Below, piece after piece: positions 19,956 to 39,026 of a DNA stretch of 64,000 nucleotides. The notes below the pieces were generated by a model that saw only the letters and a program-made list of their open reading frames with translations, searched no databases and was not told where the DNA came from. Position numbers and translations under genes: made by a program. Source of the DNA: Haplodiscus bocki. Taxonomy: Eukaryota. The DNA is taken from assembly GCA_965655095.1 (NCBI GenBank), contig OZ296650.1, positions 9,424,001 to 9,488,000 on the forward strand. Direction: 5' to 3'. Positions within the stretch are counted from its first letter, which is position 1. The number at the start of each line of letters is the position of its first letter.

Positions 19956-20401
19956 TTTCACGGTGCAATTTTAGGTCTGAGTTAATAGATTGAGCCTGAG
20001 TATCGTGTAATGTCAATTCACAATTGTAGTCTTCTCTCTTGTCCCAAAATCCAACTCGAAAATTGTGGTATGAAAATTTCAGGATGTCAGGGGGTTTGAG
20101 AATTTTTTGTGGGGCTGCACTTGGCGTCTCGATGCTTCACTTATTGTAGCTAAGGCATACCCAAGTTTTCTTCAACATTTACTGAATTTTTTGGAAAAAA
20201 AACACAAAATTTTTCAAAACATTAGAGTCTGTCCCCTTCAGATATATTGAGACTTACGGGAGGCACCGGCTTGCCCCGTCCCCCTCTTGATAGCATTTGT
20301 TGTCCCAGATAACAAATCAGTAACTAGAAATTCTTGGTATCGAAGCAAAGTATGCGAATTGGATGTGAGCAATGTGAAACTACCGATATTTTGTGCACAA
20401 A

Positions 20402-20693
20402 AGTAATGGGGAAAACAGAAGATGACGCCAAAAGCCACGAACGCAGCGTCCAAATTGTATTTCACAGAAAAGTGATTTCTCAGAAAAAGTAAAATCAGAC
20501 GCAGACACAAAATTCATCTACATGAAAAAAAGCAGGTGGTTATTAAATTTTTCATCCACATACATTTCAAATGTGGGGTACACAGGAAAGAAAATTTAAT
20601 TTTGTAAAAAATTTTTTGCGTGGTATTATCAGTGGTAGTACAAAATAAAAAAGTTATCCACGCGCAAAACCATTTCAACGAGCAGGTGGTTAT
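20402..20693 (+). repeat. Left terminal inverted repeat of the Polinton
   Basis: The outer ~210 bp match the reverse complement of ~38465-38673 with about 10 mismatches by manual alignment. After a diverged patch, homology resumes to AGCAGGTGGTTAT at 20693. Confidence 0.93.
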
Positions 20694-21165
20694 TGAATTG
20701 GTTTTTTTCTACACATTGTTCATCTATATGAAAAAAGCATCTTACCAACACAAAGCAGGTGGATAATAAATTATTCATCCATGTACATTTCAAATGAGTA
20801 GAAAACCAACACCATTTTTCACATTTTCAATTTCACATCAGACGTACATAACAAATTTCACATTGGACTATCACAGCACATTACCCAGAATCTCACATGA
20901 TGACTATCAACTATCCATGAAAACGACCTGAGATCATGAGGACGATGGTATCACACACGATGATGATCAACTATCCACGAAACCCATAAGGCGAAAACGA
21001 CTCGAGATCATGAAGATGATGGTATCATGGAAACGATCTAACACCAGGAGAAAAGAAGAATGTGAAGAAGAAGAAAGTTTATTCGAAGACATCGTGTGTT
21101 ATGTTTTGTATTTGATCGTTGGTGTGTTATGATATATGTAAGTTTCATAAAATTTAATCAGGGGT

Positions 21166-21557
21166 ACTATGTTTTTGGGGGTTTAGGATCCGCTTAAGCA
21201 AGATTTCTACAAAATAGCTTATTCTTACATGTTTTATGATTCGTTTAAGCAAAATTTTTACATTATAACATATGTTTACATGGTTTTGGAATGGTTTTAG
21301 GATCCGTTCAATCAAGATTTTTACATTATAAACTATCTCCACACGTTTAAGGGGTCGTTTAACTGAATTTTAACCTTTCTAGCTTATGCTTACATGTTTA
21401 AGAAATTGTTTAACTAATCCCTGTACATTATAGCCAATCTCTACATGTTTAAGGAACCGTTCAAGCAATCTTTAACCTTTATAGCCTATGTTTACATGTT
21501 TAAGGAACCGTTCAAGCAATTTTTAACCATTATAGCCTATGTTTACATGTTTAAGGA
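21166..21557 (+). repeat. 51-bp tandem repeat, about 8 degenerate copies, in the Polinton left arm
   Basis: TACATGTTTAAGG-like unit starts at 21226, 21277, 21340, 21391, 21442, 21493 and 21544. Confidence 0.85.
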
Positions 21558-21806
21558 TAGGACATACCATCTTACCATGGTGAAAGTTGACATTCTGCGG
21601 TTCGATACCAATCGATAGATCTTACCATAATTAGCACACCCTGAAAGTTTCAGCTTCATATCTGTCACAGTTTTCGAGAAAAACGATTTTGAAAAAAATC
21701 AAAGGGCTAAAAACAATTAAAAACCACTTAAGCGTAAACTTTTTCCTTTTGCCACGGTATATACAGATCAAGAAATCAACGAATATTTGAGCTACAGAAA
21801 AGTACA

Positions 21807-22310
21807 ATATATCGTTGAAAAGGTCTTGAAAAATGCTATCTAATGGAAATATTTTCAAAAACATTAACTGCAACCTTACGATTGAAAAATTTCACAAACC
21901 CTGAAACTATACACTTAAACATGGTATGTCAATGAACAGTTTTTAATAATGATAACATATTATATATCGTTGAAAAGGTCCTAAAAGGTAGAATTCAACA
22001 ATATTATTTTCAGAAACATTAACTGAAGCCATACCATCGAAAAACTCAAAAACCCTGAAACTATACCCTCAAACATGGTATGTCAATGAAAAATTTTAAA
22101 TGACAGTGGAGTGTTGTATATCACTAGAATGGTAATTAAATGTAGATTTTAATGGCATGATTTTCTGAAACGTTGGTTGAAACTATTACCATCTGAAACC
22201 TCAAACATGGTATAAGTCAGCGAAAAAGTTTTCAATAATATTGACATTTTATATATCGTTGAAAAAGTCTCGAAAAATGCTATTTAATGATAAGGTTTTC
22301 GAAAATGGTG
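21807..22310 (+). repeat. ~135-155-bp tandem repeat, about 3.5 copies
   Basis: TATATCGTTGAAAAGGTC...CTGAAAC...AAACATGGTATGTCAATGAA recurs at about 21807, 21962, 22117 and 22251. Confidence 0.8.
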
Positions 22311-22439
22311 AGTGAAATTATACTTTTTTGTACTACTAAAATAATAATTATACTTTTTTTTGTATTTGAATAAGTGCTTATTCATACAAGTATACAAATA
22401 AATATACTAGTACTTGTATATGAATTCATGTAAGTATAC

Positions 22440-37100: not shown

Positions 37101-37806
37101 TTTAGATCTAGAATTATTTAAAAAAGATGATTTTAAAAACATTATTAAACAACAATCAAATTTAACGTTCAACGGTATTCATAAATCATATGAACACTAT
37201 TATAATTATACATTCAAACAGAACCAGGTAGTTATGGATAAAGCTAAAAATGTTGGCTTTTCTTTATTGGAATGGAGTAAGTTACACATGTATGAAACAT
37301 ATTACGATACATTACAACCATATTTTGGTCAAGAAATTTTACATCTACACTATATTGATACAGATGGAATGATATTGAGTATGAATACAAAAGATATTAT
37401 CAATGATTTAAAAAATTTAGAAGATACATCCGATTTCAGTAACTCAGATGAAAATCATGAATTGTTCACTAACAAAAACAAGAAAGTGATTGGTAAATTT
37501 AAAAATGAAACTCCTAAAATATTTTGATAGAAGAATTTGTTTGTTTAGGATCAAAGGCTTCTTCGTTTAATTCTCAAAACAATGATGAAAATAAAAGCTT
37601 TTTCTAGATCTCAATCAAAACATATTAATTTTGAAGAATTATACACTTGTTTATTTGGTGGAGAATGTCAAAAAGAATGTGATAGTTATATTATTCGATC
37701 TCTTAATCATCAAATGTATCTTCAAAAAGTAAGAAAATCTACACTATCTATTTTCGACGATAAACGATGTTACATAAATGAAACTGAAAGTGAACCATGG
37801 AATTGA
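34148..37806 (+). pseudogene. polB: Protein-primed family B DNA polymerase (pPolB) with N-terminal terminal-protein/vOTU-like region and an endonuclease VII (HNH) insert; several stops and frameshifts
   Basis: Fragments 35053-35490, 35533-36009, 36016-37527 and 37582-37806 carry ExoI DFEA, EndoVII CRFC..VRDHCHLTGKYRSPAHNTCN, ExoII H.FSNYD, ExoIII YCKSDV, PolA YMDATNLYG, PolB KLLVNAAFGK and PolC YIDTDG. The upstream broken frame has GWIFDKI, SYVKIP and NND.FCCIWSIL. Confidence 0.96.
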
Positions 37807-37861
37807 AAGTCATATTTTTATTGAAAAAGATTCTTTATTTCAAAAAAATTGTTACCAATAA

Positions 37862-38368
37862 ATGAATGAAAACGAATTATATATTGTGAAAGAATATAAA
37901 TTTGATAGCCGACTCATCACTGAAATAGAATCTATAAAAGATAAACGTTTTAGAGATTGTCATAATAGTTATTTTCATAACTTTAAATATGAATTTAGCT
38001 ATGATATTAAACTCACAAATATCACTATTAATGAAACAATTAATATGACAATTTCTGATAAAAGCATGAATTTGAATGAAATAAATAAAAAATTAACAGT
38101 TGCTAGACAAATTGGTTTTATGTTCAATCAAATAAACAAAGTAACAATAAATTATTTTTCACATTTACGATATATAAACGTAAATTACTATCTTAAATTT
38201 CCAATTCCGATGTGTCATAGACAATTTTTTGGAATAATCTCACAAAATCGAGAGTATGTAGACAGTTTTTGCAATGATAGAAATAATACTTTTCATTTTG
38301 CATGTCGGAAATGGATTAAAAATTGTACGTATTTTTTTAAATTCTTTTTTATTTCTAATTCAACATAA
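37862..38368 (+). CDS. Hypothetical protein, 168 aa (paralogous to fragments at 22440-22600 and 23245-23350)
   Basis: Intact ORF with TAAATG start; C-terminal YYLKFPIPMCHRQFF..FCNDRNNTFHFACRKW. Confidence 0.7.
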   Translation: MNENELYIVKEYKFDSRLITEIESIKDKRFRDCHNSYFHNFKYEFSYDIKLTNITINETINMTISDKSMNLNEINKKLTVARQIGFMFNQINKVTINYFSHLRYINVNYYLKFPIPMCHRQFFGIISQNREYVDSFCNDRNNTFHFACRKWIKNCTYFFKFFFISNST

Positions 38369-38380
38369 ATTTATATTTTT

Positions 38381-38673
38381 ATAACCACCTGCTCGTTGAG
38401 CTGGTTTTGTGTGTGGATGAACTTTTTCCTGTGTATCCCCATTGATATGTATATGAAAAATTTTTTTTTACAAAATTAAATCTTCTTTCCTGTGTACCCC
38501 TCATTTGAAATGTATGTGGATGAAAAAATTAATAACCACCTGCTTTTTTTCATGTAGATGAATTTTGTGTCTGCGTCTGATTTAACTTTTTCTGAGGAAT
38601 CACTTTTCTGTGAAATACAATTTGGACGCTGCGTCCCCGACTTTTGGCGTCATCTTCTGTTTTCCCCACTACT
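38381..38673 (-). repeat. Right terminal inverted repeat of the Polinton
   Basis: Reverse complement of 20402-20693; ends ACTACT, the canonical Polinton (AGT)n terminus. Confidence 0.93.
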
Positions 38674-39026
38674 CACAAAAGTTCAAAACCTAAAGAAAAA
38701 ATTCTCACCACAAATCCCAGAAACCAAAAACAACAGTAGATGCAATTTGTTAGAAGAAGTTTTTGAACCTTTTGAAAACGATTACAAAAAGCATCCTTAG
38801 TTGTCTTTTCAGTTTATTCTACAATTATTTTGAATTTAGGTTCGGCATTTTTAAGAAATTGCAACGAAAAGCGCGGGAACATAGAACAGAACGGGAAATC
38901 CGATATCACTCCTAGAATTCCTCCTGCGACGGCATATTAAGCAGCATTAAAAACACCAATGTAACCAAAGAACCTCAAAGAAACACCCTAGCTTTACTTC
39001 AAGATTGAAAGTAAGGTGAACTCATG

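What the first reader, a model, noticed from the sequence alone, without database searches (positions are those of the whole stretch)
20396..38679. Complete endogenous polintovirus with full virion module, TIRs and 6-bp TSD
Seen: intact boundaries (CACAAA TSD, ~95% identical outer TIRs) around replication, integration and morphogenesis genes plus about ten accessory genes. Most genes are broken by stops and frameshifts, so the ORF track misses the protease, most of the MCP and half of the integrase. Inference: a moderately old insertion of a possibly undescribed lineage; intact relatives may exist elsewhere in the genome.
Basis: partly seen in the sequence, partly recalled or inferred. Interest (0 to 1): 0.75.

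Follow-up and report, generated by a model that had tools for sequence, protein, structure and literature searches.

The report
Decayed Polinton with two penton genes
A full-length but mutation-wrecked copy of a well-known kind of integrated DNA virus (Polinton); it is mostly ordinary, except that it seems to carry two diverged genes for the capsid-corner protein, and some relatives carry a self-splicing, spreading insert in their polymerase.

Summary
The element spans 20402-38673 (18,272 bp), between perfect CACAAA duplications, with ~293-bp TIRs (outer 200 nt 190/200). It carries pPolB, rve integrase, an A32-type ATPase, a double-jelly-roll capsid gene (shown on an 83-89% identical natural relative), and motif-level protease and penton genes. 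Every core gene is broken; decay is about 3-4% per site, so this copy is a fossil. It belongs to a very large family: 1,354 capsid and 1,732 penton-like protein clusters, many full length. Contigs from both samples that hold the locus bridge both junctions. Such Polintons, even thousands per genome, are known. Three things are less ordinary. (1) Two tandem penton-like genes, ~33% identical, alike in the jelly-roll parts and divergent in a helical insert. (2) A ~165-bp intergenic repeat that other copies lack at some sites. (3) In a 60-67% identical relative, a LAGLIDADG intein in the PolC motif, present in 7 of 12 cluster mates with a flank-conversion signature; this copy lacks it. The host is not identified and no tree with named Polintons could be built. 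The consensus step was referred.

The parts
20396..20401 (.). Left target-site duplication CACAAA
   Evidence: chance about 4-5e-4
20402..20693 (+). Left terminal inverted repeat (starts AGTAAT)
   Evidence: outer 200 nt 190/200
20932..21132 (+). Small stop-free frame with hydrophobic tail, in a region of short repeats; gene status uncertain
   Evidence: no Pfam or PHROG hit
21182..21557 (.). Subterminal 51-bp tandem repeats
21850..22305 (.). Subterminal 154-bp tandem repeats
22385..22570 (-). Remnant resembling the end of ORF 37862-38368 (inverted match 22470-22541 / 38243-38314), next to a partial intergenic repeat
   Evidence: protein-level match weak (E=0.001)
22576..23184 (-). Intact 202-aa accessory ORF, unknown family
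   Evidence: no Pfam, PHROG or NCBIfam hit; Atlas hits only 0.90 with low recognition
23245..23787 (-). ~180-codon accessory gene with N-terminal zinc-finger-like motif; one in-frame stop
   Evidence: zf hits only E 0.1-1
23955..24140 (+). Intergenic ~165-bp repeat, copy B
24141..24580 (+). Helix-turn-helix-like accessory gene, frameshifted
   Evidence: HTH_24 E=0.046; PHROG DNA-binding E=0.005
24571..24728 (+). Intergenic segment with a partial repeat copy (C); skipped in other family copies
   Evidence: joints
24732..25067 (+). Intact 111-aa accessory ORF
   Evidence: only weak hits
25062..25245 (-). Intergenic repeat copy D (81% to B, inverted); skipped in other family copies
   Evidence: joint 25061-25230
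25256..25710 (+). ~150-codon accessory gene, broken
25941..26281 (+). Putative adenain/Ulp1-like maturation protease, spread over three frames (His, Asp and Gln/Cys motifs)
   Evidence: motif positions, frames; motif meaning recalled; no library hit
26308..26541 (+). Small basic reading frame, broken
26532..26700 (+). Intergenic repeat copy F (79% to B)
26700..27756 (+). Penton-like (PX) gene 1; four frame changes and at least one internal stop against 356-aa natural relatives
   Evidence: median 73% identity to 120 relatives; motif order matches the PX alignment in PMC4028283 file S3 by eye; fold not resolved
27844..28949 (+). Penton-like gene 2, paralog of gene 1; four stops and one frame change
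   Evidence: 32-35% to gene-1 relatives over 334-341 aligned positions, E 1e-38 to 1e-43; 35/77, 16/84 and 57/144 by region
28994..29405 (+). Small basic protein with amphipathic stretch; candidate for the 'cupiennin-like' gene of Beta adintoviruses
   Evidence: helical moment 0.63, above the 99th percentile (0.57) of background; family name from PMC8502044 section 8, likeness recalled, not scored
29421..29954 (+). Intact 177-aa ORF with hydrophobic segment
   Evidence: nearest Atlas clusters mostly Preplasmiviricota, score 0.89-0.90, a lead only
30061..30815 (+). A32/FtsK-type packaging ATPase, broken by stop and frameshift
   Evidence: Pox_A32 E=1.4e-4; Walker A 30259, Walker B 30430, GRH 30496
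30827..31661 (+). ~270-codon gene in three frames just upstream of the capsid gene; unknown family
   Evidence: only weak hits
31698..32926 (+). Major capsid protein gene (double jelly roll); 2 stops, 1 frameshift
   Evidence: 83-89% to P0122; P0122 has PF21738 E=2e-11; fold matches capsid proteins
32950..33772 (-). rve integrase, broken by stops and a frameshift; D, D and E motifs at 33667, 33472, 33370
   Evidence: PF00665 E=3e-11
33776..34082 (-). Small frame upstream of the integrase (Cys pair, coiled-coil-like); separate gene or integrase N-terminus
34148..37806 (+). Protein-primed DNA polymerase B with vOTU-like region and inserted endonuclease VII domain; 9 stops, 1 frameshift; PolC site (37351) has no intein
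37862..38368 (+). Intact 168-aa accessory ORF
   Evidence: no family hit
38381..38673 (-). Right terminal inverted repeat (ends ACTACT)
38674..38679 (.). Right target-site duplication CACAAA

Best explanation
This is a single integrated copy of a Polinton (Maverick; family Eupolintoviridae, probably Beta-type polymerase) that has been decaying neutrally since insertion. How the family works, by inference from known Polintons: the linear genome is copied from its TIR ends by the protein-primed polymerase; the rve integrase inserts it with a 6-bp staggered cut, which leaves the CACAAA duplication; capsid, penton, ATPase and protease build and fill an icosahedral particle. Shown here: ends, duplication, gene set, breaks, family size. 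Inferred: particle formation, and that the two penton-like genes, kept side by side far longer than this copy has been dead, both served the vertex, most likely as a mixed or alternative pentamer with one shared jelly-roll base and two different outer helical domains (about 0.45 for a mixed vertex). This copy cannot make any core protein.
For: TSD, TIRs, end motif. Core genes. Capsid fold on natural relative P0122: top VIA-align rows are ASFV p72 (Z 8.9, rmsd 4.9, 275 aligned) and faustovirus MCP (Z 7.9), both over the whole model; most named Foldseek hits at E<=0.001 (30 in all) are capsid proteins of adintoviruses, NCLDV, virophages or adomaviruses. Polymerase motifs kept in 82-89 of 89 long relatives, vOTU-like Cys in 88 and His in 86. 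Decay: 9 stops in 1,217 codons gives d about 0.04, 2 in 409 gives 0.03, TIRs 2.5% per arm; terminal branch 0.159 against a median of 0.064. Unbroken contigs with no differences bridge both junctions at the depth of the flank in all four runs, two samples. Paralog pair; both genes lie under high family depth (bins 26367-29034).
Against: The capsid model is poor (pLDDT 49) and Z 8.9 is only slightly above the tool's background of 7-8. The penton model failed (pLDDT 44; no Foldseek match at E<=0.001) and no PDB or Pfam hit was found, so 'penton' rests on a by-eye motif match. The protease has no library hit and is short. No intact gene-2 relative was fetched: 0 of 120 listed hits are closer to gene 2, because the query came from gene 1. 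No virion or RNA evidence. No named reference Polinton could be put in a tree.
Confidence: 0.93

Rival explanations
1. The family spreads only as a self-synthesising transposon inside the germ line; the capsid genes are kept for another role or are relics.
For: No particle or RNA evidence here; relatives were found only on long contigs of unnamed assemblies, none in IMG/VR or JGI scans.
Against: 84 of 120 listed capsid relatives are full length (>=409 aa) while 66-100% identical, median 79%, which implies long purifying selection on the capsid gene; penton-like relatives likewise (79 of 120 at 350-361 aa). The scans need exact short words and are insensitive.
Confidence: 0.2
2. The second penton-like gene is not a vertex subunit. 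It is an alternative penton used in separate particles, or a duplicate turned to a non-structural job.
For: Only ~33% identity; the helical insert is 16/84 identical; no structure for either paralog.
Against: The jelly-roll-like parts are kept at 40-45% over full length, and the gene sits in tandem within the structural block. Mixed pentons from two homologous subunits exist in tectivirus PR772 (PMC6750898, passages).
Confidence: 0.45
3. It is an endogenous mavirus-like virophage or Polinton-like virus (PLV) rather than a Polinton proper.
For: Host unknown; low GC, TIRs and rve integrase also fit maviruses; a mavirus capsid is among the Foldseek hits (rank 18).
Against: [quoted passage not shown] Best capsid hits are an adintovirus and a MELD virus protein.
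Confidence: 0.04
4. The element is an assembly mosaic of many similar copies, and some breaks are sequencing errors.
For: Very high family depth inside the element; several frame changes lie in A/T runs.
Against: Junction contigs match with 0 differences in all four runs; several internal single-copy-depth contigs also match with 0-2 differences (table 8); TSD is perfect; stop density, TIR divergence and branch length agree. No listed contig spans the whole element, and the runs may include the sample the window came from.
Confidence: 0.03

Closest known systems
Polintons/Mavericks, family Eupolintoviridae (formerly Adintoviridae), order Amphintovirales (ICTV 2025, PMC12451622)
   Same: TIRs, 6-bp TSD, (AGT)2//(ACT)2 ends, 18.3 kb (vertebrate range 12.7-24.6 kb, PMC8097293), pPolB, rve integrase, ATPase, capsid, penton-like and protease-like genes; decayed state.
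   Different: Two tandem penton-like genes (one in the vertebrate layout of PMC8097293 section 7); all core genes except the integrase on one strand; short protease; intergenic repeat family.
Beta adintoviruses (Terrapene type; PMC8502044)
   Same: Polymerase matches PF03175 only weakly (59.6 bits in P0001, no match in P0031, P0118); vOTU-like N-terminal region; candidate cupiennin-like gene.
   Different: No gasdermin-like gene could be assigned; no direct sequence comparison was possible (sequence files not readable in the supplement).
Massively expanded polintoviruses of stony corals (PMC11131425)
   Same: Very large, diverse family in eukaryotic assemblies (1,354 capsid clusters).
   Different: Host and relationship untested; that paper's passages mention no intein (0 occurrences).
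Tectivirus PR772 heteropentameric penton, P5/P31 (PMC6750898)
   Same: Two homologous jelly-roll vertex proteins in one genome.
   Different: Bacterial virus; P5 carries a spike and is much longer than P31, whereas both genes here are ~350 codons. Works-like analogy only.
LAGLIDADG inteins in the PolC motif of family B polymerases of archaea and giant viruses (recalled, no call)
   Same: Relative P0099 has a 346-aa Ser...His-Asn intein with homing endonuclease inside the PolC motif.
   Different: Here in a Polinton protein-primed polymerase; not in the window's copy; host of P0099 unknown.

Membership tests
Polinton / Eupolintoviridae | Terminal inverted repeats | tested here: met
   ~293 nt, outer 200 nt 190/200
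Polinton / Eupolintoviridae | 6-bp target-site duplication and (AGT)2//(ACT)2-type ends | tested here: met
   CACAAA both sides; right end perfect, left end one mismatch (motif in PMC8097293 section 7)
Polinton / Eupolintoviridae | Protein-primed family B polymerase with vOTU, exonuclease and palm motifs | tested here: met
   the terminal-protein domain itself was not tested
Polinton / Eupolintoviridae | Retrovirus-like (rve) integrase | tested here: met
   PF00665 44 bits against cut-off 32.6
Polinton / Eupolintoviridae | A32/FtsK packaging ATPase | tested here: met
   Pox_A32 best hit E=1.4e-4 on a fragment, 1 bit under cut-off; Walker A, B and GRH motifs
Polinton / Eupolintoviridae | Double-jelly-roll major capsid protein | tested here: met
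   on natural relative P0122, 83-89% identical: PF21738 above cut-off, fold searches; model confidence low
Polinton / Eupolintoviridae | Single-jelly-roll penton (PX) | tested here: inconclusive
   motif order matches PX alignment by eye; model failed, no library hit
Polinton / Eupolintoviridae | Adenain/Ulp1-like cysteine protease | tested here: inconclusive
   motifs in three frames; no hit in Pfam, PDB or PHROG
Polinton / Eupolintoviridae | Virions or current activity | not testable with these tools
   this copy is broken in every core gene; no RNA holder listed for the flank used
Beta adintovirus type | Polymerase divergent from the PF03175 archetype | tested here: inconclusive
   weak or no PF03175 match fits, but no comparison with the Terrapene reference was possible
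Beta adintovirus type | Cupiennin-like and gasdermin-like accessory genes | tested here: inconclusive
   amphipathic basic stretch at 28994-29405; no gasdermin hit for 29421-29954
Beta adintovirus type | Capsid and polymerase cluster with named Beta references | not testable with these tools
   no named reference sequence came from any call; tree holds unnamed relatives only
Polinton-like viruses (PLV) | Usually no pPolB and no rve integrase | tested here: not met
   both present; definition from PMC11161782 passages
Mavirus-like virophages | [quoted passage not shown] | tested here: not met
   ~1,220-aa polymerase, Pfam match 565-1050 in P0001; feature from PMC11161782 passages

The most novel reading that the evidence does not exclude
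This is a Polinton lineage, expanded to hundreds or thousands of copies, that builds its capsid corners from two different pentons (shared jelly-roll base, different outer helical domain), and whose polymerase gene is the battleground of an actively homing LAGLIDADG intein. Intein-plus and intein-minus alleles coexist, the intein drags flanking codons with it, and the repeated reshuffling of the PolC motif across the family tree records escape from the endonuclease. If the host is an animal, this would be a full, mobile intein living in an animal's nuclear DNA inside an endogenous virus.
Probability: 0.3. Interest if true: 0.65.

Novelty: new variant of a known kind. Interest (0 to 1): 0.38.

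Why it matters
The fossil copy alone adds little: decayed Polintons are common. The family could matter in three ways. A two-penton vertex would extend mixed pentons, known from tectivirus PR772, to Polintons and give a simple way to vary host recognition. A homing intein with plus and minus alleles at 98-100% background identity implies that different genomes meet in one nucleus, and is a ready test case for homing in an endogenous eukaryotic virus. More than a thousand distinct capsid variants with open frames make this host a good place to look for Polinton particles by observation.

Tried and rejected
No whole genome is held, so no copy count or empty-site search in the assembly. Scans for related loci found nothing: IMG/VR with the capsid piece (0 of 39 pattern matches confirmed) and with alignment A1 (0 of 6), JGI metagenomes (0 of 191), phage records. 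Empty site: no such joint among the 15 of 520 joints shown; a single-copy joint could be among those hidden, and contigs show presence, not absence. No RNA holder listed, which is no evidence on expression. Penton model and its fold search were uninformative; PDB profile search 0 hits at E<=10. Protease: 0 hits. Rfam: 0 matches in 20000-39000. The intergenic repeat does not fold better than shuffles (z from +1.0 to -2.6 over 20 folds); a sigma-70 scan is irrelevant to a eukaryotic element and gave 22 sites against 24.6 expected. Suspected paralogy of 37862-38368 with 23245-23787 was not supported (E=2.1). Atlas searches gave leads only. Host genes: 0 of 62 plus 3 flank ORFs hit Pfam. An acoel host was a guess from recall; nothing here tests it; literature checked on that guess shows Mavericks at 4.5% of one acoel genome (PMC6451197, passages) and 28 pPolB1 entries for two Xenacoelomorpha assemblies (PMC10748475 supplement). 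The treekit run did not finish; FastTree was used (109 of 121 rows, those with under 420 aligned residues dropped). Earlier scan notes: nothing by place, relatives or sequence. Searches for a described two-penton Polinton or a Polinton intein found none in the listings and passages read; PMC11426020 is not held, and unreadable supplements (PMC4028283 file S5, PMC8502044 sequence files) may hold close relatives.
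Full report
1. Observation. The element runs from 20402 to 38673 (18,272 bp). CACAAA stands directly before and after it; at flank composition a 6-base match has a chance of about 4-5e-4. The right end reads ACTACT and the left AGTAAT, one change from the (AGT)2//(ACT)2 motif given for Mavericks (PMC8097293, section 7). The TIRs are about 293 nt: 190 of the outer 200 match, 264 of 289 in a local alignment. GC is 27% inside and 37% outside. The window's only N run (10368-10567) lies far away.

2. Core genes. Natural relatives were used to map the genes; breaks were read with X only. 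The polymerase spans 34148-37806 and has 9 stops and 1 frameshift against P0001 (64% and 76% identity in its two pieces). It holds an endonuclease VII domain. Of 89 long relatives, 84 keep PolA, 84 PolB, 82 the EndoVII motif, 88 a vOTU-like Cys motif and 86 a His motif, which fits the TP-vOTU-exonuclease-palm layout of PMC11161782 (passages). The capsid gene 31698-32926 has 2 stops and 1 frameshift against P0122 (83% and 89%). P0122 carries PF21738 above its cut-off. Its model is poor (pLDDT 49), but the best structural matches over the whole chain are ASFV p72 (Z 8.9, rmsd 4.9, 275 aligned) and faustovirus MCP (Z 7.9), and most named Foldseek hits among the 30 at E<=0.001 are capsid proteins. 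The integrase hits rve (E=3e-11). The ATPase fragment hits Pox_A32 (E=1.4e-4, one bit under cut-off) and has Walker A, Walker B and GRH motifs. The protease is recognised only by His, Asp and Gln/Cys motifs in three frames at 26043-26200 (motif meaning recalled); four library searches missed it.

3. Two penton-like genes. A search with 27300-27650 returned 1,732 clusters among 1,792 candidates, mostly 356 aa. These map to 26700-27756 (median 73% identity, four frame changes) and also, end to end, to 27883-28949 at 32-35% (E 1e-38 to 1e-43, four stops, one frame change). Between relative P0503 and gene 2, identity is 35/77 in residues 1-82, 16/84 in 83-172 and 57/144 in 173-322. The middle part is the only confidently modelled one and is helical. 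The order of motifs in both genes matches the Polinton PX/penton alignment of PMC4028283 (file S3, part 1 of 2) by eye; no score could be computed, the model failed elsewhere, and fold and profile searches were empty. A 33% identity is far beyond this copy's 3-4% decay, so the duplication is old and both genes were kept. Both lie under high family depth, so gene 2 is not private to this copy. No intact gene-2 protein was fetched (0 of 120 listed). A mixed vertex as in PR772 (PMC6750898, abstract and passages) is the reading I favour slightly (about 0.45); alternative pentons or a changed function are about as likely.

4. Age and state. Stop density implies about 0.04 (polymerase) and 0.03 (capsid) substitutions per site; TIR divergence gives 0.025 per arm; the copy's terminal branch is 0.159 against a median of 0.064 among 109 sequences. 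These agree on a few per cent of neutral decay; no host rate is known, so no date. Four runs from two samples of one study hold the locus. In all four, contigs with no differences bridge both junctions at flank depth (for X1: 35.7 left, 35.2 right, flank 32-35). No empty-site joint is among the 15 of 520 joints shown. This fits an insertion shared by both samples, but one may be the window's own source and contigs do not prove absence.

5. Family size. The capsid piece finds 1,354 clusters (90% identity) among 1,662 candidates; 84 of the 120 listed are full length, 66-100% identical, median 79%. The polymerase finds 268 among 8,000 scored, with clusters of up to 504 members. Most lie on long unnamed ENA contigs. 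Whether they come from this host species is not shown. Summed contig depth inside the element is 6,400-182,000 in X1 against about 35 for single-copy DNA. The tool warns that this is no copy number; dividing by 31 for overlap gives a floor of about 6-170 near-identical copies (my inference), and one contig at 38544 alone has depth 3,249. Thousands of copies per genome are reported for corals (PMC11131425, passages), so size alone is not new.

6. Intergenic repeat. A ~165-bp AT-rich repeat lies at 23955-24140 (+), 25062-25245 (-) and 26532-26700 (+), 79-81% alike, with partial copies near 22380 and 24640. All lie between genes, and blastn finds none in the 46 kb of flank. Contigs of other copies skip 24571-24728 and 25062-25229. 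It has no stable fold and no Rfam match. Most likely it is an optional cis-element (promoter, enhancer or origin-like) or a small mobile repeat tolerated only between genes while the lineage was active; both readings are inference.

7. Intein in relatives. P0099 (60% and 67% identical to P0001 either side of the insert) has a 346-aa insert in the PolC motif, with Intein_splicing, Hom_end and LAGLIDADG_3 above cut-off, TIGR01445 above cut-off, first residue Ser and last His-Asn. Its cluster has 136 members, 15 listed; three too short to reach the site were left out; of the other 12, 7 have the intein and 5 lack it. Intein-free mates match P0099 at 46-50 of 50 away from the site but 21/25 just before and 15-19/25 just after it; intein-bearing mates show no such dip. 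That is what co-conversion during homing would leave. A second, 63% identical intein start occurs in P0103 on another branch. PolC motif variants are scattered over the tree. The window's own site (37351) is empty, and the host of P0099 is unknown. PMC11161782 (passages) only suggests intein origins for endonuclease inserts in Polinton polymerases; searches listed no report of a full Polinton intein.

8. Comparison. It works like, and is, a Polinton: six defining features met, two inconclusive, none failed. PLV and mavirus features were not met. The weak PF03175 match and an amphipathic small protein point to the Beta type of PMC8502044 (sections 7 and 8), untested by tree. ICTV now calls the family Eupolintoviridae (PMC12451622, passages). 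Other papers seen as passages only: PMC10748475 (supplement rows), PMC6451197, PMC12220804, 10.64898/2026.10.13.758929, 10.1101/2022.07.28.501842; none of these passages describes a two-penton Polinton. Supplements I could not read (PMC4028283 S5; the sequence files of PMC8502044, cut when stored) may hold close relatives.

9. Verdict. Real, correctly bounded, correctly identified, dead. A known kind of element, with a probable structural variant (penton pair) and a family feature worth its own follow-up (homing intein). Interest 0.38.

Noticed in passing
relative P0099 and cluster mates P0257-P0270 (not in the window; window site 37351): 346-aa LAGLIDADG intein inside the PolC motif of a related Polinton polymerase; 7 of 12 long cluster members have it, 5 lack it, with an identity dip around the site. 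P0103 has a 63% identical intein start at the same site.
   Followed up: partly
pPolB relatives P0001-P0120: The PolC motif varies strongly (Cys or Thr, and several flanking variants) and the variants recur on separate branches; 37 of 89 long relatives have Cys in place of the usual Thr. Possibly escape from, or scars of, intein homing.
   Followed up: partly
window 23955-24140, 25062-25245, 26532-26700, partial 22375-22440 and 24635-24712: AT-rich ~165-bp intergenic repeat, in both orientations, none in the flanks; other copies skip some of these sites.
   Followed up: partly
window 25693-25880 and 27744-27814: Further intergenic stretches that contigs of other copies skip; no significant match to the main repeat.
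   Followed up: partly
window 21182-21557 and 21850-22305: Subterminal 51-bp and 154-bp tandem repeats on the left side only; other copies differ in unit number.
   Followed up: no
window 20529-20573, 20752-20796, 38500-38546: A TIR sub-repeat containing AGCAGGTGG occurs three times on the left and twice on the right; possible origin or protein-binding site.
   Followed up: no
window 22470-22541 and 38243-38314: Inverted 72-nt match (76%) between the end of the rightmost ORF and a remnant on the left; relic of a longer TIR or an old gene duplication.
   Followed up: partly
window 30061-30180: The ATPase frame begins with two Cys pairs, a zinc-binding-like extension.
   Followed up: no
window 46887-48287 (-): 466-codon stop-free host frame, serine-rich, no Pfam hit; probably a long exon.
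   Followed up: no
window 19359-19656 and 61327-61625: Inverted pair of a ~300-bp host repeat, 88% alike, with a partial copy at 11915-11989.
   Followed up: no
window 1023-2827, 11725-11835: Degenerate ATCATGGC-type host tandem repeats of 11-32 bp.
   Followed up: no
window 48865-48966; 39028-39086: 17-bp minisatellite (6 copies, 95%) and an (ATAC)n microsatellite.
   Followed up: no
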